Below are positions 105 to 24,903 of a stretch of DNA of 34,102 bases, in pieces. Made by a program: the position numbers and the translations under genes. Position 1 is the stretch's first letter. Every line of letters starts with the position of its first letter. Origin of the DNA: an uncultured Thermotogaceae bacterium (lineage in GTDB: Bacteria > Thermotogota > Thermotogae > MWEM01); contig CAYYNI010000002.1 in assembly GCA_964472765.1 (NCBI GenBank), positions 1 through 34,102 on the forward strand, read 5' to 3'. The notes under the pieces are model-generated. The model saw nothing but the letters and a program-made list of their open reading frames with translations. It was not told the origin of the DNA and ran no database searches.

Positions 105-1094
105 TTATTCATCATACCCATTGGGATGGTTCTTGTGCCAATTCCAAGCGGTGGAAAGGATTTGCTCCAGATCACTGTATTGGGGTTTCCAGTTTAATTC
201 TTTGTTTATTTTTTCCGATGAGGCAATCAAAACGGCGGGGTCCCCGGCTCTTCTTTGTGTATTCACCACAGGAATATCTTTTTCCGTTACTTTTCGGGCA
301 GTTTCTATCACTTCATTCACAGAAAAACCCACACCATTTCCCAGATTGAACACCGTGCTTTTTCCGCCGGACAGCAATCTTTTCAGTGCCAGTATATGTG
401 CTGTTGCCAAATCCGATACGTGGATATAGTCCCGCACACAGGTGCCGTCTTTTGTGGGATAATCCGTTCCGTAAACGGCTATGTGTTCCCTTTTACCCAA
501 TGGAACTTGAAGGATAAGGGGGATGAGATGCGTTTCAGGCGTATGGTCTTCGCCAATTTCACCACTGGGATGGGCACCCGCTGCGTTAAAATATCTTAAG
601 GCGGTGTATTTTATATCATACGCATGGTCAGACCAATACAGTAATTTTTCCACGGTGAGTTTGGTTTCTCCATACGGGTTTTTTGGGATGGTTGGATCTG
701 ATTCTAGAATGGGAATCTGTTCAGGTTCACCATAGGTGGCGGCGGTTGATGAGAAAACGATATGGTTTACTTTGAATTCTCTCATCATTTCTAACAGGCA
801 GATTGTGCCGCTTACGTTGTTATCATAATACTTTAGTGGATTCTCCATACTTTCACCAACAAGTGAATCTGCTGCGAAATCGATGACGGCATCTATTCTT
901 TCCGATTCAAACAGTTCTCGTAATTCCGTCTCTGAGCGAATATCGCCGAGATAAAAGGGCACCTCTTTAGGTACGGCATGTCGATGTCCTTTATACAAAT
1001 TATCAAACACCACCACCTTTTCTCCACTTTCTAATAACGCCCTTACTGTATGACTGCCTATGTATCCTGCTCCTCCACAAACCAGTATTGACAT
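105..1094 (-). CDS. galE: UDP-glucose 4-epimerase
   Basis: 329-aa ORF. It has an N-terminal Rossmann motif (VCGGAGYIGSH), the SDR catalytic YxxxK (PYGETK), and full-length resemblance to GalE (DYIHVSDLA, NLGNG). AAAGGGGG lies 7 nt upstream of the ATG. Confidence 0.95.
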   Translation of the reverse strand: MSILVCGGAGYIGSHTVRALLESGEKVVVFDNLYKGHRHAVPKEVPFYLGDIRSETELRELFESERIDAVIDFAADSLVGESMENPLKYYDNNVSGTICLLEMMREFKVNHIVFSSTAATYGEPEQIPILESDPTIPKNPYGETKLTVEKLLYWSDHAYDIKYTALRYFNAAGAHPSGEIGEDHTPETHLIPLILQVPLGKREHIAVYGTDYPTKDGTCVRDYIHVSDLATAHILALKRLLSGGKSTVFNLGNGVGFSVNEVIETARKVTEKDIPVVNTQRRAGDPAVLIASSEKINKELNWKPQYSDLEQILSTAWNWHKNHPNGYDE

Positions 1095-1294: not shown

Positions 1295-3142
1295 ATGAAG
1301 GCAATAGGGTTGGTTTTAATGATGATTATGTTGAGTGTGTCCGTTTTAGGAGAGGAGTTCAAGACAATTACATACGATTTGACGGATCTTTATTATGATA
1401 ATGATTTGATTTCAACCGGGGTTGATCAAAATTACAACTTCTATTTTCCGGTTGTGAATACGGATGCAGTTGAATCTGGAAATTTTTTAGTATTTTACGA
1501 ATATGCACAGATAGCCGGTCCAGGCTCGATGCTTGTGTTCAGCATCGACGATGTCCCTGTTCAAACGGTTTTTCTTGAACAATCAAAAGGTCAGATGTCA
1601 CTTTCAATCCCTTCGGACTTTTTAAAACTGAATTCATTAGTCAAATTATCGTTGGCTATTACACTTGATTATTCCCTTTGTGATGATTCCCGAATCAACA
1701 AAGACGCTTTGTGGTTTAGAATAAAGAAAGAGAGTCGGCTTGAATATGCCTATTTGGAGCAGTCTATTGAAACGATCAGTGCTTTTCTTTCACCGATGAA
1801 TCCCGATCGGTTCTTTGAGCTGGTTTACGAGGGTTCTGATGAACAGTTTGTGTTGCTCACTCAAATGGCTCAGTATTTGGGCTATCTTTCAAGAGGGGTT
1901 AAAAGGCAATTGAATGTGGTTAATACGCCTACCGGTTTGCATAACTCGATTGAGATAAGCTCAGATTCATCCCGTGTGCAATTGGCAGATAACGGATCCA
2001 AGCTATCCATTGGAAAGGAAATTTCAGAGGTTTTTCCTTTCATTAACGTCATTCCCACGGACTCCTTGCTGGTTGAACAAGGGAGTGTTAAAGAGCGTAA
2101 TGATCATACCCTTTCCTTTTCAGATTTGAATATCAATACCATACGGACCGATGTGGTTTACAACAACCAGGTCAGTTTTCCGCTGACTTTGGATCGATTC
2201 GGCGGTGTTCCTGAAGAGGTTTGGTTGGATTTGAAATTCTCCTTTTTCAACAAATTGAGAGAGGAGGGATATTCTCTTAATATCTTTTTAAATGATGATT
2301 TGCTTCAATCCATTAACGTTTCACAATTTGATCATGAGCAACGCATGAATCTGAAAATAGCCGTTCCTTCTGATTATTTTAGGGCTTTTAACACATTGAG
2401 TTTTGAAATGGTTAATCAAAAGAGTGAATGTGATGAATTTTCTGTGATCATATACGATGATTCAACCTTTTCGTTCACCGATTCAAGGCCTTATCTCAAT
2501 CCGCTTATCAATGAATTCCCCTATAGTGTCTATGCCAGGACCCTTTATGTTGTTTCAAATTTTTCGGATGATACGGCCAAAGCAATAGTCAAACTGGCGT
2601 ATGAAAAAGGGCGTATCGCTTCAATGTATTTATCCCCGCAAGTGATAACAATGGAGGAATTTGCTCAGGATGAAACGGCATTGAGTCAATATGACAGTCT
2701 TGTTTTTCTGATTGATTCGGCTGACTTTTTCCCGTTAACCCAGTTGGTTCAACTCACCGATTCATTCAGTATTAGTGACGATGAAGGTGGAATGATATTT
2801 GAAGCGATGACTTCCGATGCCTTTGATGTGGTTTACAGCTTCAATTACAAAGGCTTACCGGCTGTTGCTTTTAGCGGTTTTTCAAAGTCATTTGGCCCTG
2901 TAGACAGCCGTTTTTTCATAAAAACTTCGCAAGCGGCATCCAATTTCGCACTTTTCAGTGAATCCGGTATCTTTGCTTTTGATGTCGGTGAAGAGAAATT
3001 GAGCGTTGAATCTGAAAGAAAGGATCAAGAGCAAACAAAATCCTTTTGGATGCAAAACAGATTGTGGATTGTTGTTTTGATCGTTGTAGTGATTCTGTAT
3101 ATTCTTATTAGCTCTTATAACAAAACATCCAAAGGCAGATAA
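1295..3142 (+). CDS. secreted, C-terminally membrane-anchored protein, BcsB-like (putative synthase regulatory/periplasmic subunit)
   Basis: 615-aa ORF with GGAGGG 5 nt upstream of the ATG. It has a signal peptide (MKAIGLVLMMIMLSVSVLG) and a single C-terminal TM helix (LWIVVLIVVVILYILISSY). Two internally repeated modules end in IPSDFL...SLCDD and VPSDYF...SECDE. The segment LNIFLNDDLLQSINVS resembles the conserved BcsB segment as I recall it from E. coli BcsB. The stop is 2 nt before the GT2 synthase start. The BcsB assignment is from memory, not from a search. Confidence 0.6.
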   Translation: MKAIGLVLMMIMLSVSVLGEEFKTITYDLTDLYYDNDLISTGVDQNYNFYFPVVNTDAVESGNFLVFYEYAQIAGPGSMLVFSIDDVPVQTVFLEQSKGQMSLSIPSDFLKLNSLVKLSLAITLDYSLCDDSRINKDALWFRIKKESRLEYAYLEQSIETISAFLSPMNPDRFFELVYEGSDEQFVLLTQMAQYLGYLSRGVKRQLNVVNTPTGLHNSIEISSDSSRVQLADNGSKLSIGKEISEVFPFINVIPTDSLLVEQGSVKERNDHTLSFSDLNINTIRTDVVYNNQVSFPLTLDRFGGVPEEVWLDLKFSFFNKLREEGYSLNIFLNDDLLQSINVSQFDHEQRMNLKIAVPSDYFRAFNTLSFEMVNQKSECDEFSVIIYDDSTFSFTDSRPYLNPLINEFPYSVYARTLYVVSNFSDDTAKAIVKLAYEKGRIASMYLSPQVITMEEFAQDETALSQYDSLVFLIDSADFFPLTQLVQLTDSFSISDDEGGMIFEAMTSDAFDVVYSFNYKGLPAVAFSGFSKSFGPVDSRFFIKTSQAASNFALFSESGIFAFDVGEEKLSVESERKDQEQTKSFWMQNRLWIVVLIVVVILYILISSYNKTSKGR

Positions 3143-3144
3143 GT

Positions 3145-5007
3145 ATGCCGGAAAGTTTAACGAAAGGGGAAAGGATTGGTCAAATCTGCATTCAAGAAGG
3201 TTTGATTACCCCTGAGCAATTGGATGAAGCCCTTATTATTCAGAAGAATAAAGGGGGCAGGATCGGATGGATTTTGTCATCCATGGGTTACATCAAACGG
3301 ATAGAGCTGTTCAGGGTTTTGAGTCAGCATTATTCACTGAAATTCGCCACCCCGGATTTTGACAGGATCAAGAAGACCATTGATAAATCACTTTTTCAGC
3401 GGATTACAAGGGAAGAAATACTTGATCGGCAGGCAATACCCTATCAAATGACGGGTGAGGGGACATTAATTCTATTGAATTCGTATCCCGGAACAGAAAA
3501 AACAAAACTTTTTTTTAAAGAACGGTTTGAAGTAAATGAGATTGAAGAATGGGTAATCACCGATCTGGATTTAGTGGATTTGGTTCAGACCGTTTATGCG
3601 GAAAAATTAGCCGATGATTCGATTTTTGGGTTGTTTTACCGTGAGCCGGATGAATCAGCTTACCGGGTGTTTTCATCCCGTCAAGTGGTTTTTTTTGCTG
3701 CGTTGACTTTGTTGGCAGCTGCTTTCATCTTTTTTTATCCACTGAAAACGCTGGGTTTTTTGATCTTCATCGCCCAGATGATATACCTGGTTATGATTGG
3801 GTTTAAATTTCTCCTCACCATTAACGGGTCAATCGATGAAATCACTTATAAGGAAAATAGCGAGGAACTTCGTGCGATTGCCGATTCGGAACTGCCTGTT
3901 TACACGATTCTTATACCCGTTTTCAAGGAACCCGATGTGATCAAAACGTTGATAGAGGCCGTAAAAAAGTTTGATTATCCTCAAAATAAGCTGGATGTAA
4001 TCTTATTGTTGGAGGAAAAGGACAAAGAGACCTATGAGGCAGCAAAAAAGGCTGAACCGCCCTCCAATTGGCGATTTTTGGTTATTCCACCATCCCAACC
4101 TCAAACCAAGCCAAAGGCCTGCAATTATGGTTTGTTTTTTTCCAGAGGGGAATATTTGGTTATTTACGATGCAGAGGATATTCCCGAACCGGATCAGCTA
4201 AAAAAATCCTATTTGGCTTTCAAAAACAATGACGAGTCTTACATTTGTTTTCAGGGGGCTTTGAACTATTTTAACAAAGATCAGAATTTGCTGACGAAAC
4301 TCTTTACTTTGGAATATTCCTATTGGTTTGATTACATGCTTCCGGGTTTATTCATGATGGATTTGCCCATTCCTTTGGGTGGAACCAGCAATCATTTCAA
4401 GGTTGACAAATTGCGTGAGATTGGCGGATGGGATCCTTTCAATACGACGGAAGATGCTGATTTGGGAATCAGGGCTTCCGCTGAGTCTTATCGAGTGGGG
4501 ATTATCCGTTCCACAACATATGAGGAAGCGAATCCACAGGTTTGGAATTGGATTCGCCAACGATCCAGATGGGTGAAAGGGTACATGCAAACCACGCTTG
4601 TTTACAACCGCCATCCTTTGAAGATGATCAAGGTCCTGGGATTAAAAAAGTGGCTGTCTTTTCAGTTTTTTATCGGGGGTACACCTCTTGTTTTTCTCAT
4701 CAATCCTATATTATGGAGTTTTTTTATACTGTGGATGACTGTCAACCCGGCGTTTTTAAATGAGATGTTTACCCCATTTACATTGGGGCTTTCACTTTTC
4801 AATTTTTTATTCGGAAACTTTTTAGGCATTTATATGAATCTGCTGGGCGCATTCAGAAGACGGAATTTTTCGCTGATTCCCATCAGTCTGCTGAACCCTT
4901 TTTATTGGTTGCTGCATTCAGCCGCTTCTTATAAGGCTTTGTGGCAATTACTTTATAAACCGCATTATTGGGAAAAAACGGTTCACGGCTTAAGCAAAAA
5001 GGATTGA
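3145..5007 (+). CDS. membrane-embedded processive family-2 glycosyltransferase (BcsA/PgaC/NodC-type synthase) with an N-terminal MshEN (T2SSE_N) c-di-GMP-binding domain
   Basis: 620-aa ORF. Residues 10-33 and 39-62 are tandem MshEN motifs. Hydrophobic helices span roughly residues 180-225. The GT2 core carries YDAED (4165-4179), TED (4447-4455) and QRSRW (4558-4572). Several C-terminal TM helices follow, and there is no PilZ domain. Confidence 0.85.
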   Translation: MPESLTKGERIGQICIQEGLITPEQLDEALIIQKNKGGRIGWILSSMGYIKRIELFRVLSQHYSLKFATPDFDRIKKTIDKSLFQRITREEILDRQAIPYQMTGEGTLILLNSYPGTEKTKLFFKERFEVNEIEEWVITDLDLVDLVQTVYAEKLADDSIFGLFYREPDESAYRVFSSRQVVFFAALTLLAAAFIFFYPLKTLGFLIFIAQMIYLVMIGFKFLLTINGSIDEITYKENSEELRAIADSELPVYTILIPVFKEPDVIKTLIEAVKKFDYPQNKLDVILLLEEKDKETYEAAKKAEPPSNWRFLVIPPSQPQTKPKACNYGLFFSRGEYLVIYDAEDIPEPDQLKKSYLAFKNNDESYICFQGALNYFNKDQNLLTKLFTLEYSYWFDYMLPGLFMMDLPIPLGGTSNHFKVDKLREIGGWDPFNTTEDADLGIRASAESYRVGIIRSTTYEEANPQVWNWIRQRSRWVKGYMQTTLVYNRHPLKMIKVLGLKKWLSFQFFIGGTPLVFLINPILWSFFILWMTVNPAFLNEMFTPFTLGLSLFNFLFGNFLGIYMNLLGAFRRRNFSLIPISLLNPFYWLLHSAASYKALWQLLYKPHYWEKTVHGLSKKD

Positions 5008-5012
5008 TCAAG

Positions 5013-6431
5013 ATGAAGATTACTCAATTTCCTTCTCTAAAAGACAATTGGAAAAGATTTCTTGTTTTTTTCATCCTTCTGGTTTTTCTTTATATGTTTA
5101 TCAGCCAACTGTTGATGGCACAAAATTTCTATCCGAATGTTGATCAGCGGATGTTATCCCGAATTTTACTTGATAAGGTACATTCCAGGGGATTTCTGGA
5201 ATCGGATTCTTTTGATATTCCTTTGTTTCTCTATTACAGTTTATGGTTTTTTCCTCAATGGCCGGCTTTTTTTTCCATTATCGTTGGAGCCTTTGTCATT
5301 TCTTTTCTGATTGTGTATGTTTTGGAAAATTTTAAGACCCCTCTGATCAAAATTGTTTTTTCATCTGCCATCGCTCTGTTGCCATCCTCTGTTTACGTGA
5401 TATCAAATCAGCCCATGATTGCTCTGTTGATGTTTTTTTTCAGTCTCGCTCTGTATTTTTTGCTTGAATTTTATCAATCTCAAAGGGTATTTTATCTTTT
5501 TTTGTCTGCCATCGCCTTCGGATTGCAGTTTTATATACAATTTCAATTTTTCTGGCTGGGTCTTTTGTTGATTCTTTTTTTTGCCGTGAGTTACTGGAAA
5601 ACGGGTTTAATTATCAATTATCTGATTACCATTCTATTTCCTTTGCTGTTTTTCTTACTGAGTTGGTTTTTTCTCATTTGGGTTTTTCGTGGGGATCTTT
5701 CTCGTTTGAGCACTCAAGTGTTTAGTCTGGATTTGAAAAACGGTATAAACTGTCTGTTTCAATGTTTTCAAACGAATTTGATCAGCCGATGGCCGATTAT
5801 GCTGTTTTATTTGTATATTTTATTCAGGGTGGGCCGATACCGTTCGTTTTATCGCTCGCCGCTTTTTTTAGCCTTTATGGCACCATTTATCCTCATTTTT
5901 ATTTTAGGGACCGGTGGCAATCAGACATCCACGTCTGCCTTTATTATTCTGTCTTTGATGAACTTGATTATCTTATTCCCCTATTTGGGACCCCTGGTTA
6001 ATGAAAAACGCCAAAAAGTCGTGATAGCCATTTTCCTGATTTTTATTTTTGCTTATGATGTCTGTTCCTTTTTGTATTTGAGAAGGGAGAATGAAGGAGC
6101 TTTTTTAAAGGCGTTTCAAGGGGAATACAAAAATGAGTCGGTAGCAGAATACCGTATAGCTGCTTCTCAATTGACGCCGTTCCACTCGGTTTTAACGGAT
6201 ACGGAATACACCTATCCGATTTTTTGTTTTTACGAGGGAAACGGAACAATCATAACAAAAGGCTCCCCACTTTATCAAACGGCTATGGCCAATCCTGCGC
6301 ATTTTGCCCAGGCTTATTTGGTTGACAAACAGTCAATGTCAATCAGTCAGGATTCTGAGAGATTATCTGAGGCGTATGGCTATCGCTATTACGAATCGGA
6401 ACGGTTTATCATCTTTAGCACACAAAAATAA
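5013..6431 (+). CDS. polytopic integral membrane protein of unknown function with a C-terminal soluble domain (possibly GT-C-like or polysaccharide-handling)
   Basis: The ORF track starts at 4968, inside the upstream gene. I prefer ATG 5013 (MKITQFPSL), which lies 5 nt after the GT2 stop with AAAGGA upstream. The protein is very Phe/Leu-rich with roughly ten or more hydrophobic segments, followed by a hydrophilic tail of about 100 aa. No catalytic motif was recognised. Confidence 0.7.
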   Translation: MKITQFPSLKDNWKRFLVFFILLVFLYMFISQLLMAQNFYPNVDQRMLSRILLDKVHSRGFLESDSFDIPLFLYYSLWFFPQWPAFFSIIVGAFVISFLIVYVLENFKTPLIKIVFSSAIALLPSSVYVISNQPMIALLMFFFSLALYFLLEFYQSQRVFYLFLSAIAFGLQFYIQFQFFWLGLLLILFFAVSYWKTGLIINYLITILFPLLFFLLSWFFLIWVFRGDLSRLSTQVFSLDLKNGINCLFQCFQTNLISRWPIMLFYLYILFRVGRYRSFYRSPLFLAFMAPFILIFILGTGGNQTSTSAFIILSLMNLIILFPYLGPLVNEKRQKVVIAIFLIFIFAYDVCSFLYLRRENEGAFLKAFQGEYKNESVAEYRIAASQLTPFHSVLTDTEYTYPIFCFYEGNGTIITKGSPLYQTAMANPAHFAQAYLVDKQSMSISQDSERLSEAYGYRYYESERFIIFSTQK

Positions 6432-6472: not shown

Positions 6473-7615
6473 TTATTTCGTTTTTCTTAAGAAGAACTCG
6501 CCCCGATCAGGTCTAAATTGGAAGATCGTTACGTGTTCGGCGTTGTAATCCCTGTATTTGTCGTTGGAGATAATGTGGTATTTTTTTTCGTAGGCAATTT
6601 TTAAGACCAGTTCATCGGCGGGGGAATAGAAGCTTACGTTGGGGTTATTCAGAAAATTCTTTTCCCAATAATCCCTTTTTTTGTTGATGATAAAATCCGC
6701 ATTGGCATCAAATACAAAAAGCAATGGAAAGTAGAGTGTTTCAGTGATGCCCAATACATTCAACAGTTCTTTCAGTCTCAACGGATCCGGTTCTATCAAA
6801 CCTGAAAAGATGATATTGCTGCCGTCAATCACCAGACCAGTTTTGGATGTTTGCGTAATGATGCGTCTGAGGTAAGGATGGATGGAATGCGCTTTTAGTG
6901 TTTCGATCATGGCGTCTTTTTGTGAAGGTTCCAACGTTGAATAAAATTCTTGTATCCATTTTATTTCAAATTCTTTCAACCGATAGGGATCCAGTTGTTG
7001 AACCTCTTGAACGATCTCGTTTTGTATTTTGATATCTTGTGAATCCGAAAAGGGACTTGTTCTTACTCCGCCGGAAGACTCGCTGTGTGATAGGGTTTTA
7101 AAGGCAGCTTCCAATTCGATGGGATCTTTGAAATAATCAGCTAAATCCGTTCCTTTTATTTTCTGTGAAAGAAGTGTGTTGAACGTTAGGTAGGACATTC
7201 CGGAAATGTTGATCCCTAAGGTTCTTTTAGCATGCGTTAAAAGAGCCGCTGAGGGAAAATAAAAAAAACGGGGTGCGGTGTAAAATAAAAAAGGGGCAAT
7301 AGTCCAGTCGTCGCATTCCAAGATTTTTAACGATTCGTTAAATCTTGTCTGAAATTTGCCTTTGCCGTAGAGTATTTCATCCAAAGCAATGACGATGCTG
7401 AGGGGGTCTTTCAATTTAAGTTTGTCAAACAGTCTTTGATCGCATTTTTTAAGAAGCGTATGGAGTTCCTTTTTTGACAGGTTCTTCAGGTGTTCCCTTG
7501 AGCAACTTGTTCGGATGGCTTTTGATTTGGCTCTTAAGTCGCTTAGATTTTTCAGATATTGGGCATCATAGGCGATATCCTTTAACTTTTTCAACTGTTC
7601 ATCACATTCCTCCAT
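6473..7615 (-). CDS. protein with a C-terminal Zc3h12a-like NYN (PIN-like) ribonuclease domain and an uncharacterised N-terminal region of about 250 aa
   Basis: 380-aa ORF. Residues 260-358 read LVIDGSNII ... FVFDANAD ... ADELVLKIAYEKKYHIISNDKYRD. This parallels the MCPIP1/Zc3h12a NYN core (VVIDGSNVA ... [24 protein letters not shown]), including the acidic residues. The start overlaps the upstream transporter stop by 14 nt and has no clear SD. Confidence 0.7.
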   Translation of the reverse strand: MEECDEQLKKLKDIAYDAQYLKNLSDLRAKSKAIRTSCSREHLKNLSKKELHTLLKKCDQRLFDKLKLKDPLSIVIALDEILYGKGKFQTRFNESLKILECDDWTIAPFLFYTAPRFFYFPSAALLTHAKRTLGINISGMSYLTFNTLLSQKIKGTDLADYFKDPIELEAAFKTLSHSESSGGVRTSPFSDSQDIKIQNEIVQEVQQLDPYRLKEFEIKWIQEFYSTLEPSQKDAMIETLKAHSIHPYLRRIITQTSKTGLVIDGSNIIFSGLIEPDPLRLKELLNVLGITETLYFPLLFVFDANADFIINKKRDYWEKNFLNNPNVSFYSPADELVLKIAYEKKYHIISNDKYRDYNAEHVTIFQFRPDRGEFFLRKTK

Positions 7616-11741: not shown

Positions 11742-13358
11742 TTAATAAATGGAATAGGGACTCAGTTCTACAGAATAAATAGGCCGTGCGGGAAAATGAT
11801 ATCGTTCTTGTTGTAAATATTCAACAGTATATTCAGTTGTGAGTTCAAACGATGGAATGACATCCAGGTGACTTTGTTGATCACGCTGGAATTGATTAAA
11901 TTTTAAACCAAACCTCAGATCATTTTGATTTGAATCGAAAATGTTTAAAAAGGAAAGCGTGCTATCAAGATGTAAACTGGGTTCGATGGAACAAACCGCT
12001 GTATGCTGGGTTCCAGTGGCTGAAACGATGTCAATGCTTCTTCTAAAATCGGCATATGGGAGCCATTGTGATGGATTGTCCCAATCCTGGGCATCAATTC
12101 GAAGAGAGTAATAAGTGTCGTCGAATTGATAAGTCACTTGTGAATTTATCCGCCCTTCTCCTTCAGAATGAGTTGAAAAGCCAAATCTGATTGTACCGGA
12201 TAGTGGAATATCCATAATATCTACGGTGATGGGTTCATCGAAAAAATAAGTACTGGGTATTTCTCTTTCGGATGAATTGACTTCCATGGTGATATTTCCA
12301 CGAATGGCAAATATCGGATGATAGAAAAACCGAATCAAATCATCGTTTAAACCCATTTCAAAATCAATGTCCATAAATGACAGGAGGATTTGAACCGGTT
12401 CATGAGAATGTATACGGATACTGGAGTTTTCACTCTGAGAGCGATGGTCTATCCTGCCCGACCACAAAACATACTCTTCATCCATCCTGTTTTCAAACAG
12501 ATAAGGTTCGTCTGGGTTTGTTCTGAAAACCCCTTTATATTTAATGCCTTTAAGAAAATCAGAAAACTCGGAAAGCTCCAGTTCACCCAGTTCCAATGTC
12601 TTAATATTGCCCGTTCCCTGAACATTCTCGATTCTTTTTAGCGGACAACCCATGGAATGATCGTAAGAAGGCCCCAAAAGGAAAAAATCGCCACTTTTAA
12701 TCTCCAGATTCATGGAGTTCGTGTCGATATCAATGGTCCTTTCCCCCGGATCATAATGATTGAGTACGGGTAATCCTTTTTCATCGATACATATTTTGTT
12801 TGCCCTATCGATTGTCATAATAGGGTAGTTCTTCTGCCCATCAACGGGAATGATTCTGAAAGTAGCGGACATTTGGGGTGTGTTGTTCAGTTCCAAGAAA
12901 ACGGCATTGGATAAATTTCTTGTTTGAGATAACGTTGTGTCAGTACCTGAAAATCGTATATCCCAAATCTCGTCTCCGTTGAGATCCAGCGTTTGATCAT
13001 TGCTCAGATCATGAATACTAACGGTTTTAGATGCTTCCGAAGTGTAAAAAATGTTTTTAAAGGAAACTACGTTTTCGCTGATAGCTAAAAACTCTAGGCA
13101 TGAATAATCCTCACTGTAGCCGGTGGTGGTTTGTTTTAGCATTCTGACACCGACCTTGTCTGCAGTGCTGAACATTGATATTTGCGGGTTATCAAAATCA
13201 TGCAAAATCTTTCCATTTCTGAAAAAACCCGCTTTCAATTCCTCCAAAGAAAGATATGGATCGGGAATCGGATCATTCCTGTCATTCACGCAAGAAGTTA
13301 GCCCCAAAGCGACAATAATCGATAGAATAATAAACAAAAAAGTGGTTTTACTCTTCAT
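11742..13358 (-). CDS. lipoprotein of unknown function
   Basis: 538-aa ORF. It has a signal peptide with a lipobox (IIVALGL-TSC, Cys23). The remainder is hydrophilic and rich in beta-strand-favouring residues, with no motif I can assign. GGGGGGG lies upstream of the ATG. Confidence 0.75.
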   Translation of the reverse strand: MKSKTTFLFIILSIIVALGLTSCVNDRNDPIPDPYLSLEELKAGFFRNGKILHDFDNPQISMFSTADKVGVRMLKQTTTGYSEDYSCLEFLAISENVVSFKNIFYTSEASKTVSIHDLSNDQTLDLNGDEIWDIRFSGTDTTLSQTRNLSNAVFLELNNTPQMSATFRIIPVDGQKNYPIMTIDRANKICIDEKGLPVLNHYDPGERTIDIDTNSMNLEIKSGDFFLLGPSYDHSMGCPLKRIENVQGTGNIKTLELGELELSEFSDFLKGIKYKGVFRTNPDEPYLFENRMDEEYVLWSGRIDHRSQSENSSIRIHSHEPVQILLSFMDIDFEMGLNDDLIRFFYHPIFAIRGNITMEVNSSEREIPSTYFFDEPITVDIMDIPLSGTIRFGFSTHSEGEGRINSQVTYQFDDTYYSLRIDAQDWDNPSQWLPYADFRRSIDIVSATGTQHTAVCSIEPSLHLDSTLSFLNIFDSNQNDLRFGLKFNQFQRDQQSHLDVIPSFELTTEYTVEYLQQERYHFPARPIYSVELSPYSIY

Positions 13359-16387: not shown

Positions 16388-16768
16388 CTATTCTTTTTCT
16401 TCAGTTACGGGCGCATCAGGTGCATTCTTAATGACACTGTTGATGCCGTTTTTACATGATGCTTTAGATTTGTAGCCTTCTGATGCCAAGATGTTTTCAC
16501 CATTTCTGGCGTTCAATCTGAATCTGAACTCCCCGCCTTTGTCAGTATACATCTCAAATTTTGGATTGGTGATTTTTTCGTAGTTTTCTTCTGTTTGGTC
16601 TTCTATTTTTTCTTTTGCAACTTCAGCGTTTTTCTTAACGCTTTCAATTCCGTTTTTACAGGCTGCGATAGAAGAATATACCTCGCTGGTACCTATGACT
16701 TCTCCGTTTGAGGCTTTCAAGTCAAATTTAACCCCTGTTTTAGTTTCACGAATGACAAATTTACCCAT
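16388..16768 (-). CDS. yegP: YegP family protein (tandem DUF1508)
   Basis: 126-aa ORF made of two repeats with the DUF1508 pattern (F.LKASNGEVIGTSEVYSS..ACKNGIESVKKNA and FRLNARNGENILASEGYKSK.SCKNGINSVIKNA). AAGGAGG lies 6 nt upstream of the ATG. Confidence 0.85.
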   Translation of the reverse strand: MGKFVIRETKTGVKFDLKASNGEVIGTSEVYSSIAACKNGIESVKKNAEVAKEKIEDQTEENYEKITNPKFEMYTDKGGEFRFRLNARNGENILASEGYKSKASCKNGINSVIKNAPDAPVTEEKE

Positions 16769-23493: not shown

Positions 23494-24120
23494 GTGAGCG
23501 AGAAGGAAGAAAAACTATCCTATTTAATGTCCCTGGGTCATTGGCAGGTGTCATTGGAGATGGGAAACAAAAGTATATCAGCCGTTTATATGGGTAAATA
23601 TAAACAGCATTTGCTTTTCGAAACAAGTAAACTTTATGGCAAAAATGAAATTGTCGGTCAAACTATGGCTTTTAAAATTTTTCTGCCATCGTTCTTGATT
23701 TCAGGCTCCGGCGAATGTAGTAAAATTACAGAATGCGAGGGCTTAAGGAACGAATTGGTTGTAAGGTTTATGTTGAGACCGGAGAAATTGAGAATTAGGC
23801 AGCAAAGATGCTTTAAGCGTTTGCCAGTTCTAGAAAAGGGTAAATTGGTGTTAGAACATCAAACAGCCCATGTGATTGTAAAGGACATGTCTTTGCAGGG
23901 AATTGGATTATTTACAATTGAAAGAATTAGAGGCGAATCAGGGACATTGACACTGCTGAAAAACGGATTGGATTTATCGGTGGAAAAAGTCCATGAATTT
24001 ACTGATTTCAACCTTTTTCAATATGGTATGAAGCTAGTTCCCGAACAGAATACTGAGCAACTGAAGGCCTATTTGTTATCGCTTCATGATCAGATTACAA
24101 AAATGGACTTTGTGCTTTAG
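23494..24120 (+). CDS. PilZ domain protein (putative c-di-GMP receptor)
   Basis: 208 aa with a GTG start and a weak SD. The PilZ signature is RCFKR (RxxxR), then 21 residues, then DMSLQG (DxSxxG), at nt 23806-23901. Confidence 0.7.
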   Translation: MSEKEEKLSYLMSLGHWQVSLEMGNKSISAVYMGKYKQHLLFETSKLYGKNEIVGQTMAFKIFLPSFLISGSGECSKITECEGLRNELVVRFMLRPEKLRIRQQRCFKRLPVLEKGKLVLEHQTAHVIVKDMSLQGIGLFTIERIRGESGTLTLLKNGLDLSVEKVHEFTDFNLFQYGMKLVPEQNTEQLKAYLLSLHDQITKMDFVL

Positions 24121-24144
24121 AAATTGAATTTAAGGATTGATATT

Positions 24145-24903
24145 ATGGATTATTTAAGTTCAAAAGTATCAACAGAATCCGTATTATCCATTGGGAAGCC
24201 CTTGCTGCTTGATGTTTCAGATCCCGAATTGGCGGGCGTTTACAAAAGCAGTATTTTTGAGCTGGATTTTCAGAAAAAAGTTATGACGATTGGCATGCCT
24301 AGCTTTAAAGGACAGTTTATTCCTATACCAGCAGGTGTGACTGCTTATGTAAAGATGTTTGATCAAAGCTCTATGTATGTTTTTATGGCTAAAGTGATCG
24401 GTTATGAAAAGAACAAAGAGGGTTTTTTAATAACGTATGTAACCCTTCCCGATCAAGCAAGAAAGATTCAAAGAAGGCAGTTTGTGAGAATTCCTTTTTA
24501 CCAAAAGGGAATTTTTGCTCTCGAACCCTTCCCGCCTGAACCGATGATAAAAGATATGGAAGATCTCAAGGATTTGAAGAATGAGAAAAAAGAAAAAGAG
24601 ATCGAAGTCAATTTCTTTATAACGAAAGATTTAAGTGCGAACGGATTGCAAATGGTTACTAAACCAAGATTAACGGCTGGTTTGAATATCTTTGTTAACT
24701 TGGAAATTGGCGGAGGAATTAACTTAGAAAATCAGGCGGCTAAGATTATTCGAAAAGACGCTTCCGTTGATACGGCTAACAACATATACGGTGTGCAGTT
24801 TTTGTCTATGTCCAAGAGTAAAGAGGATAAATTGGTTAAATATATCTTCCATTTGCAGCAAGAGAGGAGAAAAAAAGAAAAACAATTGAAAGAAGGGAGT
24901 TAA
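24145..24903 (+). CDS. YcgR-like PilZ domain protein (putative flagellar brake / c-di-GMP receptor)
   Basis: The signature QRRQFVR (RRxxxR) ... DLSANG (DxSxxG) lies at nt 24472-24645, preceded by a YcgR-N-like domain of about 110 aa. The ORF track starts at TTG 24124. I prefer ATG 24145, which has AAGGA 8 nt upstream. Confidence 0.75.
   Translation: MDYLSSKVSTESVLSIGKPLLLDVSDPELAGVYKSSIFELDFQKKVMTIGMPSFKGQFIPIPAGVTAYVKMFDQSSMYVFMAKVIGYEKNKEGFLITYVTLPDQARKIQRRQFVRIPFYQKGIFALEPFPPEPMIKDMEDLKDLKNEKKEKEIEVNFFITKDLSANGLQMVTKPRLTAGLNIFVNLEIGGGINLENQAAKIIRKDASVDTANNIYGVQFLSMSKSKEDKLVKYIFHLQQERRKKEKQLKEGS

What the first reader, a model, noticed from the sequence alone, without database searches (positions are those of the whole stretch)
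3172..3330. Tandem MshEN-type c-di-GMP-binding motifs fused to the N-terminus of a processive GT2 polysaccharide synthase
Residues 10-33 (RIGQICIQEGLITPEQLDEALIIQ) satisfy every fixed position of the 24-residue MshEN motif RLGxx(L/V/I)(L/V/I)xxG(L/V/I)(L/V/I)xxxxLxxxLxxQ. After a 5-residue spacer (KNKGG), residues 39-62 (RIGWILSSMGYIKRIELFRVLSQH) repeat it, with one degenerate hydrophobic position and the terminal Q shifted by one.

Two such motifs separated by a short spacer is the arrangement that binds c-di-GMP in the N-terminal (T2SSE_N) domain of Vibrio cholerae MshE. In this protein the domain is followed by TM helices, a GT2 core with YDAED, TED and QRSRW motifs, and more TM helices. 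The protein ends without a PilZ domain.

This implies a synthase that senses c-di-GMP through MshEN rather than through the C-terminal PilZ used by BcsA/Alg44-type systems. MshEN-glycosyltransferase fusions have been noted in domain surveys. To my knowledge no such synthase has been characterised, but I cannot verify that here.
Basis: partly seen in the sequence, partly recalled or inferred. Interest (0 to 1): 0.7.

Follow-up and report, generated by a model that had tools for sequence, protein, structure and literature searches.

The report
MshEN-fused GT2 exopolysaccharide synthase (XagB-type)
A bacterial sugar-polymer synthase carries a well-preserved sensor domain for the signalling molecule c-di-GMP at its front end; the feature is real, but this protein type is already catalogued and widespread, so it is a new member of a known kind.

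Summary
ORF 3145..5007(+) encodes a 620-aa protein. Residues 10-62 (nt 3172..3330) form two 24-residue MshEN-type motifs joined by a 5-residue linker.

- **Sensor domain.** NCBIfam's curated MshE-related c-di-GMP motif model hits above its cutoff. A family profile matches the MshE and PilF c-di-GMP domains. The AlphaFold model's best PDB match is the MshE-c-di-GMP complex (TM 0.87, RMSD 2.1 A).
- **Catalytic part.** The rest is a membrane-embedded processive GT2 (DxD, TED, QxxRW) with a hyaluronan-synthase/BcsA-like fold. There is no PilZ domain.
- **Operon.** A BcsB-like gene lies upstream and an unassigned polytopic membrane gene downstream. This trio recurs across many phyla.

Motif I does not match every fixed position (I11, C15). 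MshEN-GT2 synthases are not uncharacterised: E. coli NfrB, with the domains in reverse order, binds c-di-GMP and needs that binding. The MshEN-GT2 order was listed in 2016. Relatives are known as XagB (Xanthomonas biofilm) and Sfz2 (iron-oxidiser stalks).

c-di-GMP binding and activation remain inferred. In the papers I searched, no N-terminal-MshEN member has been tested biochemically. Verdict: a new member of a known kind, of modest interest.

The parts
1295..3142 (+). BcsB-like periplasmic partner (615 aa): N-terminal signal peptide and C-terminal TM anchor at residues 590-608. Its stop codon lies 2 nt before the GT start codon.
   Evidence: Pfam BcsB PF03170 scores 61.9 bits against a cutoff of 21. 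Hydropathy was computed. It is homologous to the partner in Hydrogenobacter (E=1e-17). BcsB-like genes sit next to the GT in 52 of 85 loci. All 9 partners sampled from different phyla pass the Pfam BcsB cutoff.
3145..5007 (+). MshEN-GT2 synthase (620 aa): cytoplasmic MshEN domain, TM hairpin, GT-A catalytic domain, then C-terminal TM/interface helices.
   Evidence: The AF2 model has pLDDT 90.2 and pTM 0.89.
3172..3243 (+). MshEN motif I (residues 10-33, helices alpha1-alpha2).
   Evidence: NF053729 hit. G12 and Q33 are invariant, L26 and L30 are at least 94% conserved, and R/K10 occurs in 30 of 48 sequences.
3244..3258 (+). 5-residue linker KNKGG (residues 34-38).
   Evidence: G38 is invariant and G37 occurs in 45 of 48 sequences. 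The spacing is the same as in MshE.
3259..3330 (+). MshEN motif II (residues 39-62, helices alpha3-alpha4).
   Evidence: R39, W42, G48 and R52 are invariant. G41 occurs in 47 of 48, L55 in 40 of 48 (otherwise F), L59 in 44 of 48 and H62 in 39 of 48.
3331..3624 (+). MshEN_C-like alpha/beta subdomain (residues 63-160; strands 97-103, 107-112 and 132-137).
   Evidence: AF2 secondary structure. The profile match to 5HTL extends to chain residue 135. Foldseek aligns 144 columns to 5HTL.
3628..3672 (+). Highly conserved linker GLFYRxPEESAYxVF (residues 162-176) between the MshEN domain and TM1. It is a candidate signal-relay segment; that role is inferred.
   Evidence: G162, L163 and A172 are invariant; F164, S171, V175 and F176 are at least 90% conserved. 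pLDDT is lower here.
3676..3846 (+). TM hairpin (residues 178-234), which places both the MshEN and GT domains in the cytoplasm.
   Evidence: AF2 helices 178-197 and 199-234. Hydropathy peaks at 181-199 and 206-224.
3892..4584 (+). GT2 (GT-A) catalytic core (residues 250-480), with DxD (D342-A-E-D345, nt 4168-4179), TED (435-437, nt 4447-4455) and QRSRW (472-476, nt 4558-4572).
   Evidence: Pfam Glyco_tranf_2_3 at 1.3e-20 and Glyco_trans_2_3 at 1.1e-19. These motifs are invariant in 48 homologues. BcsA 4p00 is matched at E=1.7e-9. Foldseek finds hyaluronan synthase 9yq5 at E=4e-13 and BcsA 4p00 at E=1.8e-12.
4642..4956 (+). C-terminal membrane helices (residues 500-604).
   Evidence: AF2 helices 500-532, 544-571 and 584-604. 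Hydropathy was computed.
4969..4989 (+). Invariant C-terminal W609-E-K-T-V-H-G615. It may be the equivalent of the gating loop of processive GT2 synthases; this is inferred, not tested.
   Evidence: W609, K611, T612, H614 and G615 are invariant in 48 homologues. The analogy with BcsA FxVTxK and HAS WGTR rests on my recollection.
5013..6431 (+). Polytopic membrane partner (472 aa from ATG 5013; about 10 TM plus a C-terminal soluble domain), with no family assignment.
   Evidence: No Pfam, NCBIfam or PDB hit. Homologues are present in 76 of 85 loci, mostly immediately downstream of the GT. It is homologous to the Hydrogenobacter gene.
105..1094 (-). UDP-glucose 4-epimerase GalE, transcribed divergently from the operon. 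It may supply a precursor; the association is seen only in the 93%-identical relative whose contigs were inspected.
   Evidence: TIGR01179 galE scores 457 bits against a cutoff of 262. The same arrangement occurs in the closest relative's contigs but not in Hydrogenobacter.

Best explanation
The three tightly packed genes 1295..6431(+) encode an inner-membrane exopolysaccharide synthase complex of the XagB/Sfz2 type. The catalytic subunit (3145..5007) is a processive GT2 synthase. Its cytoplasmic N-terminal MshEN domain binds one c-di-GMP molecule between two tandem 24-residue helix-turn-helix motifs. Binding is proposed to reorient the MshEN subdomains. That change would be relayed to the GT active site, either through the conserved linker and TM hairpin or by direct contact with the catalytic domain and the C-terminal WxKTxHG tail. 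This would switch polymer synthesis on when c-di-GMP is high, which is the role PilZ plays in BcsA.

The BcsB-like protein (periplasmic, C-terminally anchored) and the polytopic membrane protein are partner subunits that receive or translocate the polymer.

**Shown here:** domain identity, fold, motif conservation, predicted topology, GT signature motifs, and conservation of the gene trio.

**Inferred:** ligand binding, the direction of regulation (activation), the relay path, and the partner roles. The polymer is unknown.
For: **MshEN identity**
- NF053729 scores 54.5 bits against a cutoff of 38.
- phmmer finds 5HTL at E=1.6e-8, in register.
- The family profile matches PilF at 1.4e-36, PilB at 1.5e-15 and 5HTL at 3.3e-14 across both subdomains.
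- The AF2 N-terminal model (pLDDT 87) has 5HTL, the c-di-GMP complex, as its top PDB match: TM 0.87, RMSD 2.1 A, 144 columns. The c-di-GMP-bound PilF GSPII-B domains follow.

**Contact residues**
- Wang et al. (PMC5013675) name these MshE positions as ligand contacts or as changed in non-binding XpsE: R9, G11, I19, L25, L29, Q32, R38, G40, L54, L58, Q61.
- They correspond here to R10, G12, L20, L26, L30, Q33, R39, G41, L55, L59 and H62. All are kept except Q to H.
- These positions are invariant or nearly so in 48 homologues of 52-93% identity from Thermotogota, Aquificota, Nitrospinota and Deltaproteobacteria/Desulfobacterota.

**Selection on the motif**
- Across 85 loci the motif is intact in some clades and decayed in others, while the domain itself is kept.
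- The curated model agrees, passing 5 and failing 3 of 8 sampled proteins along the same lines.
- The motif is therefore a separately selected feature of the domain.

**Topology**
- A two-helix TM hairpin lies between the MshEN and GT domains, so both are on the same side of the membrane. For a nucleotide-sugar GT that side is the cytoplasm.

**Processive synthase**
- DxD, TED and QxxRW are invariant.
- The fold matches hyaluronan synthase, BcsA and chitin synthase.
- The BcsB partner passes its Pfam cutoff.

**Precedent**
- xagA/xagB are required for the raised biofilm of a Xanthomonas rpfG (c-di-GMP phosphodiesterase) mutant (PMC3609779).

**c-di-GMP use by the organism**
- Two PilZ ORFs with RxxxR and D/NxSxxG motifs lie in the flagellar cluster of the same window.
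Against: - No binding or activity data exist for this protein. In the searched literature there are none for any N-terminal-MshEN GT2.
- The motif deviates from the strict consensus at I11, C15, I40, S45, Y49 and H62. The terminal Gln of motif II, which hydrogen-bonds the ribose and phosphate, is His here.
- In PilF, single Gln-to-Glu changes at these positions lowered affinity 77- to 158-fold.
- PilF GSPII-A has a nearly intact motif I and a His at the equivalent position of that motif. It does not bind, and restoring the consensus alone did not rescue binding.
- Pfam's own MshEN/T2SSE_N model (PF05157) does not hit this protein even at E<=1. It does hit many homologues.
- Clades with decayed motifs keep the domain, so the domain must also have a c-di-GMP-independent role.
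Confidence: 0.7

Rival explanations
1. The N-terminal domain has the MshEN fold but does not sense c-di-GMP in this protein. It would serve as a structural or protein-interaction module, for example in oligomerisation or partner docking, and synthase activity would be controlled in some other way.
For: - Several MshEN-fold domains do not bind c-di-GMP: XpsE, PilF GSPII-A and Xanthomonas PilB-N, which binds PilZ instead (7lkm among the fold hits).
- Family members in Mucilaginibacter, Ignavibacterium and Microbacteriaceae keep the domain with a decayed motif.
- This protein has H62 in place of the ligand-contacting Gln, and also carries C15 and S45.
- Pfam PF05157 gives no hit.
Against: - Ten of the eleven MshE positions listed are kept, and they are invariant or nearly invariant across phyla in this branch.
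- Non-binders such as XpsE have lost many of these positions.
- The curated c-di-GMP-motif model is passed by a clear margin.
- The closest structural matches are the ligand-bound forms.
Confidence: 0.15
2. The domain binds c-di-GMP, but the output is not allosteric activation of catalysis. Binding might instead inhibit the enzyme, or control complex assembly, localisation or interaction with a dedicated diguanylate cyclase.
For: - MshEN domains regulate very different outputs, including ATPases, kinases and CheX.
- NfrB works with a dedicated local cyclase, DgcJ, through direct contact.
- No structural information on the MshEN-GT interface could be obtained here.
Against: - Every characterised c-di-GMP-controlled exopolysaccharide synthase cited is activated by the ligand (BcsA, NfrB, PgaCD).
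- The xag-dependent biofilm appears when the c-di-GMP phosphodiesterase RpfG is deleted.
Confidence: 0.1
3. The GT is not a polysaccharide synthase-translocase. It would be a membrane glycolipid or oligosaccharide GT2, in line with the automatic annotation of relatives as beta-monoglucosyldiacylglycerol synthase.
For: - Relatives have been auto-annotated that way.
- Only about four clear TM helices are predicted in the GT, fewer than in BcsA.
- No NCBIfam equivalog cutoff is reached.
Against: - The QxxRW, TED and DxD motifs of processive enzymes are invariant.
- The best fold matches are the membrane-integrated processive synthases hyaluronan synthase, BcsA and chitin synthase.
- The gene is coupled to a BcsB homologue and a polytopic partner across phyla.
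- xagB mutants lose a biofilm matrix phenotype.
Confidence: 0.05

Closest known systems
XagB (Xanthomonas xagABCD) and Sfz2/Sfb2 ('xag-like' stalk cluster of iron-oxidising Zeta- and Betaproteobacteria)
   Same: - Same domain order: N-terminal T2SSE_N/MshEN, TM helices, then a GT2 with DxD, TED and QxxRW.
- A BcsB-like gene (Sfz1/CDS9) lies upstream and membrane-protein genes lie downstream.
- Homologues 53-54% identical to the window protein are named 'glycosyltransferase XagB' by JGI and carry PF05157.
- The N-terminus of Xanthomonas XCC0678 aligns with the window protein (E=4e-8) and with a gammaproteobacterial family member (44% identity, E=3e-21).
   Different: - The host is a Thermotogota bacterium, not a proteobacterium. 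Identity to the proteobacterial branch is only about 41-46%.
- No xagD-like fourth gene was recognised here. The 380-aa ORF on the opposite strand is unrelated to the Hydrogenobacter fourth gene.
- I could not verify directly that XCC0678 is XagB.
- Xag and Sfz are known only genetically or by comparative genomics. The Sfz2 paper did not read the N-terminal domain as a c-di-GMP sensor.
E. coli NfrB (c-di-GMP-activated GT2 exopolysaccharide synthase)
   Same: A processive-type GT2 (DxD, TED, QxxRW) is fused to an MshEN domain through TM helices. c-di-GMP binding to that MshEN domain is demonstrated and is required for function.
   Different: - The domain order is reversed, with MshEN at the C-terminus of NfrB.
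- The window protein matches the NfrB models only in the MshEN region (18.5 bits against a cutoff of 1170), so the two fusions are probably independent.
- The partners differ: NfrA outer-membrane barrel and YbcH in E. coli, against a BcsB-like protein and a polytopic membrane protein here.
BcsA-BcsB cellulose synthase
   Same: - Membrane-integrated processive GT2 with the same catalytic motifs and a similar fold.
- A BcsB-family partner with a C-terminal TM anchor.
- Proposed control by c-di-GMP.
   Different: - There is no C-terminal PilZ domain; an N-terminal MshEN domain takes its place.
- There are fewer TM helices.
- The CelA models fall far below their cutoffs (47.9 against 699).
- No bcsC, bcsZ or bcsQ genes are present in the operon.
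- The product is unknown.
MshE / PilF GSPII-B MshEN domains of type IV pilus and T2SS ATPases
   Same: - The same two-motif four-helix bundle plus alpha/beta subdomain.
- The same 5-residue spacing, with the motif starting about 9-10 residues from the N-terminus.
   Different: - The domain is fused to a glycosyltransferase rather than a secretion ATPase.
- Family-specific invariant residues W42, R52 and H62 occur.

Membership tests
MshEN (T2SSE_N / GSPII) c-di-GMP-binding domain | Two tandem 24-residue motifs, RLGxx(L/V/I)(L/V/I)xxG(L/V/I)(L/V/I)xxxxLxxxLxxQ, separated by 5 residues. | tested here: met
   The motifs occupy residues 10-33 and 39-62 with the linker KNKGG. There are conservative deviations at I11, C15, I40, S45, Y49 and H62. 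The curated motif model NF053729 scores 54.5 bits against a cutoff of 38.
MshEN (T2SSE_N / GSPII) c-di-GMP-binding domain | Pfam PF05157 (MshEN/T2SSE_N) match. | tested here: not met
   The protein and its first 182 aa give no hit at E<=1. The same model does hit many homologues of 52-64% identity, some weakly.
MshEN (T2SSE_N / GSPII) c-di-GMP-binding domain | Fold: N-terminal four-helix bundle plus a C-terminal subdomain with a three-stranded sheet flanked by helices. | tested here: met
   AF2 predicts helices 11-17, 23-36, 40-46 and 52-62 and strands 97-103, 107-112 and 132-137. Foldseek's top hit is 5HTL, with TM 0.87 and RMSD 2.1 A.
MshEN (T2SSE_N / GSPII) c-di-GMP-binding domain | Conservation of the ligand-contacting residues (MshE R9, G11, L25, L29, Q32, R38, G40, L54, L58, Q61). 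| tested here: met
   The equivalents here are R10, G12, L26, L30, Q33, R39, G41, L55 and L59. The tenth, Q61, is replaced by H62.
MshEN (T2SSE_N / GSPII) c-di-GMP-binding domain | Measured, specific c-di-GMP binding. | not testable with these tools
   This needs ITC, MST or DRaCALA on the purified domain.
Processive membrane-integrated GT2 synthases (BcsA / HAS / chitin synthase / PgaC type) | GT-A domain with D, DxD, TED and QxxRW signatures. | tested here: met
   D293, D342-x-x-D345, T435-E-D437 and Q472-RS-RW476 are all invariant in 48 homologues. The Pfam GT2 models hit at 1e-20.
Processive membrane-integrated GT2 synthases (BcsA / HAS / chitin synthase / PgaC type) | Catalytic domain embedded between TM helices, with overall fold similarity to solved synthases. 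| tested here: met
   TM hairpin at 178-234 and helices at 500-604. Foldseek finds 9yq5 HAS at E=4e-13 and BcsA 4p00 at E=1.8e-12, plus chitin synthases.
Processive membrane-integrated GT2 synthases (BcsA / HAS / chitin synthase / PgaC type) | Makes and translocates a polymer. | not testable with these tools
   No product information is available. GalE next door is only suggestive.
BcsA cellulose synthase proper | C-terminal PilZ domain that binds c-di-GMP. | tested here: not met
   There is no PilZ hit in Pfam or NCBIfam, and the protein ends at residue 620 just after the last helix.
BcsA cellulose synthase proper | Equivalog-level match to CelA/BcsA models. | tested here: not met
   TIGR03030 scores 47.9 bits against a cutoff of 699, and NF008558 scores 41.1 against 992.
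BcsA cellulose synthase proper | BcsB partner encoded adjacently. | tested here: met
   The upstream ORF hits PF03170 at 61.9 bits against a cutoff of 21. The match covers only part of the model, and the BcsB equivalog cutoffs are not reached.
NfrB-type c-di-GMP-activated GT | Domain order GT2 - TM - C-terminal MshEN, with NfrA and YbcH partners. | tested here: not met
   MshEN is N-terminal here. NF008411 scores 18.5 bits against a cutoff of 1170 and aligns only to the MshEN part, residues 7-105 against model positions 480-573. The neighbours are a BcsB-like protein and a polytopic protein.
XagB / Sfz2-type MshEN-GT2 module | N-terminal T2SSE_N/MshEN domain plus GT2 in one polypeptide. | tested here: met
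   The architecture is listed by Wang et al. 2016 and described for Sfz2.
XagB / Sfz2-type MshEN-GT2 module | Conserved neighbours: a BcsB-like gene and a polytopic membrane-protein gene. | tested here: met
   The same order occurs in Hydrogenobacter. Iterative profiles find the polytopic partner in 76 of 85 loci and the BcsB-like gene in 52 of 85. The BcsB Pfam cutoff is passed in all 9 sampled.
XagB / Sfz2-type MshEN-GT2 module | Direct sequence relationship to the genetically studied Xanthomonas XagB. | tested here: inconclusive
   Only the 79-aa N-terminal fragment of XCC0678 printed in Wang's supplement could be compared. It gives E=4e-8 to the window protein and 44% identity to a gammaproteobacterial member. 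That XCC0678 is XagB was not verified. JGI names homologues of 53-54% identity XagB.

The most novel reading that the evidence does not exclude
The BcsB-like / MshEN-GT2 / polytopic-protein trio could be a distinct, very widespread and biochemically untouched class of exopolysaccharide synthase. Three features would set it apart.
1. c-di-GMP would gate catalysis by a route different from BcsA-PilZ: an N-terminal MshEN domain acting through a conserved linker and/or the invariant C-terminal WxKTxHG tail.
2. The unassigned polytopic partner would be an obligatory subunit of a kind not seen in the Bcs, Pga, Alg, Pel or Nfr systems. It might complete the channel or have a GT-C-like role.
3. The sensor motif would have decayed repeatedly in some lineages while the domain was kept as a structural part.

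A Thermotogota member might make a convenient subject for structural work.
Probability: 0.3. Interest if true: 0.55.

Novelty: new member of a known kind. Interest (0 to 1): 0.3.

Why it matters
c-di-GMP control of matrix polysaccharide synthesis is central to the switch between motile and biofilm life. So far it is understood structurally only for PilZ in BcsA and for the PgaCD interface. NfrB shows biochemically that an MshEN domain can do this job. The much more widespread N-terminal-MshEN family (XagB/Sfz2), to which this gene belongs, has no binding data, no structure and no known polymer.

Confirming the mechanism would add a second structural solution for c-di-GMP gating of a synthase. 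It would also assign a function to a conserved three-gene module found in many phyla, including plant pathogens and iron-oxidising stalk formers.

For this window, the practical outcome is a confident annotation, not a discovery. The architecture is already in the literature and in curated profile libraries.

Tried and rejected
- **Pfam PF05157.** Run on the protein and on residues 1-182, with no hit even at E<=1. I did not treat this as refutation, because NCBIfam, PDB profile and fold searches all agree.
- **Relaxed regex of Wang et al.** Applied to all six frames, with zero literal matches because of C15. Regex matching is too brittle here, so profiles were used instead.
- **Single-sequence tblastn for the two partner proteins.** It failed beyond Thermotogota and Aquificota and was replaced by iterative local HMMs.
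- **Identity of the polytopic partner.**
  - The word-indexed homologue search found only 9 close relatives, none with an informative name.
  - phmmer and a family profile against the PDB gave nothing meaningful.
  - Pfam gave only sub-threshold PMT_2 hits in 2 of 9 sampled.
  - The GT-C idea is kept only as a weak lead.
- **The 380-aa ORF on the opposite strand (6473..7615) as an XagD-like fourth gene.** It has no similarity to the fourth gene of Hydrogenobacter, so this was rejected.
- **c-di-GMP riboswitch or other RNA element ahead of the operon.** There is no Rfam hit in the whole window.
- **Promoter and terminator pattern scan.** Uninformative: 18 promoter-like sites against 14 expected.
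- **MshEN-GT inter-domain contacts.** These could not be examined because model coordinates are not exposed.
- **Membership of NfrB or BcsA proper.** Both were rejected after defining features were tested and not met.
- **Literature searches.** No paper in the searchable library reports biochemical characterisation of an N-terminal-MshEN glycosyltransferase.


Full report
**1. Observation**

ORF 3145..5007(+) encodes a 620-aa protein. Residues 10-33 are RIGQICIQEGLITPEQLDEALIIQ, residues 34-38 are KNKGG, and residues 39-62 are RIGWILSSMGYIKRIELFRVLSQH. These correspond exactly to nt 3172..3330. The start codon lies 2 nt after the stop of the upstream gene, and a close homologue (93% identity) starts at the same place.

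Residue 11 is Ile where the consensus has Leu, and residue 15 is Cys where L/V/I is expected. Because of C15, the relaxed regular expression of Wang et al. 2016 finds no literal match in any frame of the window. Motif II deviates at I40, S45, Y49 and H62. H62, not the preceding Q61, aligns with MshE Q61. H62 is also the conserved residue in the family, present in 39 of 48 sequences, whereas position 61 is variable.

**2. Is it more than chance?**

Yes, for the following reasons.
- NCBIfam's curated 53-position model 'cyclic di-GMP-binding domain, MshE-related' (NF053729) matches residues 10-61 end to end at 54.5 bits against a cutoff of 38, E=7e-15.
- phmmer of residues 1-182 against all PDB sequences finds Thermus PilF (E=9e-17) and the Vibrio MshE N-domain 5HTL (E=1.6e-8), with residues 9-75 aligned to chain residues 8-72.
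- A profile built from 21 family N-termini matches PilF at 1.4e-36 and PilB at 1.5e-15. It matches 5HTL at 3.3e-14 over positions 8-141 against 6-135, which covers both the four-helix MshEN_N and the MshEN_C subdomain.
- Pfam's PF05157 does not hit this particular protein. It is precomputed on many homologues of 52-64% identity.

**3. Structure**

An AlphaFold2 model of the whole protein, built with 48 homologues, is confident (pLDDT 90.2, pTM 0.89). It predicts, in order:
- four helices (11-17, 23-36, 40-46, 52-62);
- an alpha/beta subdomain with three strands;
- a TM hairpin (178-234);
- a GT-A domain;
- C-terminal membrane helices (500-604).

A separate model of residues 1-176 (pLDDT 87) has the MshE-c-di-GMP complex 5HTL as its best PDB match: TM 0.87 normalised to the target, RMSD 2.1 A, 144 columns, 25% identity. 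The c-di-GMP-bound PilF GSPII-B structures come next. The full-length model matches hyaluronan synthase (E=4e-13), BcsA (1.8e-12) and chitin synthases. Model coordinates are not exposed, so I could not inspect how the MshEN domain sits against the GT domain.

**4. Ligand-contact residues**

Wang et al. (PMC5013675) describe the following for MshE:
- Arg9/Arg38 stack on the guanines.
- The Leu clusters (L10, L25, L29, L39, L54, L58) pack against the guanines.
- The backbone amides of Gly11/Gly40 and of the following residue read O6 and N7.
- Gln32/Gln61 hydrogen-bond the ribose and phosphate.
- XpsE lost binding through G11V, I19R, L29R, R38G, G40L, L54H, L58C and Q61V.

With the +1 offset of the alignment, the window protein has R10, G12, L20, L26, L30, Q33, R39, G41, L55 and L59, with H62 in place of Q61. 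In 48 homologues of 52-93% identity:
- G12, Q33, G38, R39, G48, W42 and R52 are invariant.
- G41, L26, L30 and L59 are at least 90% conserved.
- Position 10 is R or K in 30 of 48. This is tolerable, because PilF GSPII-B binds with 6 nM affinity using Lys and Leu at these positions (PMC11731258).

There are two caveats. Single Gln-to-Glu changes in PilF lowered affinity 77- to 158-fold. PilF GSPII-A does not bind, and reinstating the consensus alone did not restore binding (PMC12002112). Binding is therefore likely but not certain, and the affinity cannot be predicted.

**5. The catalytic part**

Pfam GT2 models hit residues 253-534. YDAED (341-345), TED (435-437) and QRSRW (472-476) are present and invariant. 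No PilZ is detected, and the chain ends at residue 620. The two-helix hairpin between the MshEN and GT domains puts both on the same side of the membrane. The RRR at 571-573 after the helix at 544-571 argues that the C-terminal tail is also cytoplasmic (inference).

The last residues, W609-E-K-T-V-H-G615, are invariant. From memory they resemble the gating-loop motifs of BcsA (FxVTxK) and HAS (WGTR). This is a lead, not a test.

**6. Surroundings**

- **Upstream (1295..3142).** A BcsB-family protein (PF03170, 61.9 bits against a cutoff of 21) with a signal peptide and a C-terminal TM anchor.
- **Downstream (5013..6431).** The TTG at 4968 is an ORF-caller artefact, and relatives are called at 471 aa. 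This is a polytopic membrane protein with a C-terminal soluble domain and no match in Pfam, NCBIfam or the PDB.
- **Spacing.** The three genes are separated by 2 and 5 nt.
- **galE.** It is transcribed divergently upstream.
- **Elsewhere in the window.** There is a flagellar/chemotaxis cluster (flhB, flhA, flhF, flhG, cheC, cheD, fliA) containing two PilZ ORFs with RxxxR and D/NxSxxG motifs. The organism therefore very probably uses c-di-GMP.
- **RNA elements.** No Rfam family, and hence no c-di-GMP riboswitch, is found.
- **Source.** The best homologues come from Thermotogota metagenome bins.

**7. Related loci**

The 80 loci kept span Thermotogota, Aquificota, Chloroflexota, Cyanobacteria, Clostridia, Synergistota, Gemmatimonadota, Actinomycetota, Bacteroidota, Ignavibacteriota and Proteobacteria.
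- Iterative local profiles find a homologue of the polytopic partner in 76 of 85 loci, mostly immediately downstream. They find a BcsB-like gene in 52 of 85, mostly immediately upstream. In Clostridia it lies downstream, and it is absent from nearly all of the Actinomycetota and about half of the Chloroflexota loci.
- Nine BcsB-like partners sampled across phyla all pass the Pfam cutoff.
- Scoring the two motifs in all loci shows they are intact in Thermotogota, Aquificota, most Chloroflexota, most Clostridia, many Proteobacteria and some Actinomycetota. They are degenerate in Mucilaginibacter, Pedobacter, Chitinophaga, Ignavibacterium and Microbacteriaceae, where the RxG glycine and terminal Gln are lost.
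- The curated NF053729 model draws the same line. Five of eight sampled proteins pass at 53-73 bits. Three fail at 18.5 bits or with no hit, although two of those three (Mucilaginibacter and Ignavibacterium) keep PilB-N-like similarity.
- The motif therefore behaves as a separately selected function of a retained domain. This supports ligand sensing where the motif is intact. It also shows that the domain has some ligand-independent role.

**8. What is already known**

- **Wang et al. 2016.** They list 'MshEN - Glyco_trans_2_3' (Rhodobacter sphaeroides Rsph17029_0522; Actinobacteria, Firmicutes, Proteobacteria) and 'Glyco_trans_2_3 - MshEN' (E. coli NfrB) among MshEN architectures. They predict c-di-GMP binding for Xanthomonas XCC0678, whose motif starts at residue 14.
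  - That fragment aligns with the window protein (E=4e-8).
  - It is 44% identical to a gammaproteobacterial family member.
- **NfrB.** It was characterised in 2021. [quoted passage not shown] Both the motif and the GT active site are needed for exopolysaccharide-dependent phage N4 infection (PMC8669469).
- **XagB.** JGI names homologues of 53-54% identity 'glycosyltransferase XagB'. In Xanthomonas oryzae, xagA and xagB are required for the raised biofilm of a mutant lacking the HD-GYP phosphodiesterase RpfG (PMC3609779).
- **Iron oxidisers.** The same bcsB-like/xagB-like/xagC-like cluster is the candidate stalk-formation locus (PMC4643136). Sfz2 was described as 'EpsE-like T2SS domain + GT2' with a BcsB-like Sfz1, but the N-terminal domain was not recognised as an MshEN sensor (PMC8250860).
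- **Gap.** I found no paper in the searchable library reporting binding or activity data for any N-terminal-MshEN glycosyltransferase.

**9. Mechanism proposed**

- **Shown.** A cytoplasmic MshEN domain with an intact-looking binding site is fused through a TM hairpin to a processive GT2. That GT2 is genetically coupled to a BcsB homologue and a polytopic membrane protein.
- **Inferred.**
  - c-di-GMP binds between the two motifs and causes the subdomain reorientation documented for PilF GSPII-B.
  - This is passed on to the active site, either via the strongly conserved GLFYRxPEESAYxVF linker and TM hairpin or by direct contact with the GT domain and C-terminal tail. The result is activation of synthesis.
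  - The BcsB-like protein guides the polymer on the outer face.
  - The polytopic partner may complete the channel, given the GT's few TM helices, or may modify the polymer. This is speculation.
- **Confidence.** About 0.7 for c-di-GMP-gated synthesis.
- **Rivals.** A non-binding structural domain (0.15), binding with a different output (0.1), and a non-polymerising GT (0.05).

**10. Verdict**

However, the architecture is catalogued, has a curated motif model, belongs to a very large family with named members (XagB/Sfz2), and has a characterised cousin (NfrB). It is a new, Thermotogota member of a known kind.

The residual interest lies in the lack of any biochemical or structural study of the N-terminal-MshEN branch and in the unassigned, near-universal polytopic partner.

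Noticed in passing
window 5013..6431 (+): Polytopic membrane protein (472 aa, about 10 TM plus a C-terminal soluble domain) with no Pfam, NCBIfam or PDB match. A homologue accompanies the MshEN-GT2 gene in 76 of 85 loci from many phyla. Only sub-threshold PMT_2 (GT-C) hits appear, in 2 of 9 relatives sampled. It looks like an unassigned, widely conserved subunit of this synthase system.
   Followed up: partly
loci L025, L032-L033, L035, L037-L039, L041-L045, L049, L054-L055, L058, L060, L062, L064-L065, L069-L071, L073, L075-L076, L078-L080, L084 (GT N-termini): In Sphingobacteriia/Chitinophagia, Ignavibacterium and Microbacteriaceae members of the family, the MshEN domain is retained but the c-di-GMP motif has decayed. 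The RxG glycine and terminal Gln are lost, and NF053729 fails in the three such members sampled (L033, L037, L070). This suggests repeated loss of sensing while a structural role is kept. Whether it tracks loss of GGDEF/EAL genes was not tested.
   Followed up: partly
window 23494..24120 (+) and 24124..24903 (+): Two adjacent PilZ-type ORFs lie inside the flagellar cluster (flhB-flhA-flhF-flhG-...-cheC-cheD-fliA). The second has a YcgR-like PilZN+PilZ architecture. Both carry RxxxR and D/NxSxxG motifs, so c-di-GMP probably also brakes motility in this organism.
   Followed up: partly
window 4969..4989 (+), residues 609-615 of the GT: An invariant W-x-K-T-x-H-G sits at the extreme C-terminus, after the last membrane helix. 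It may be the gating-loop equivalent of this synthase family. The analogy is from memory only.
   Followed up: no
window 3628..3672 (+), residues 162-176 of the GT: The segment GLFYRxPEESAYxVF, between the MshEN domain and TM1, is one of the most conserved stretches of the N-terminal region. It is modelled with low confidence. It is a candidate relay element.
   Followed up: no
window 6473..7615 (-) and 11742..13358 (-): Two sizeable ORFs (380 aa and 538 aa) have no family assignment. The first gives only a sub-threshold NYN-RNase hit. Both are also called in the closest relative's contigs. The first is unrelated to the fourth gene of the Hydrogenobacter cluster.
   Followed up: partly
window 16388..16768 (-): A small protein with two DUF1508 repeats (E=4e-42) stands alone between the peptidase genes and the flagellar export genes.
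   Followed up: no
locus L004 7243..8016 (+) (Hydrogenobacter): In Aquificota an extra 257-aa ORF without any family hit is inserted between the BcsB-like gene and the GT gene. It is absent from the window.
   Followed up: no
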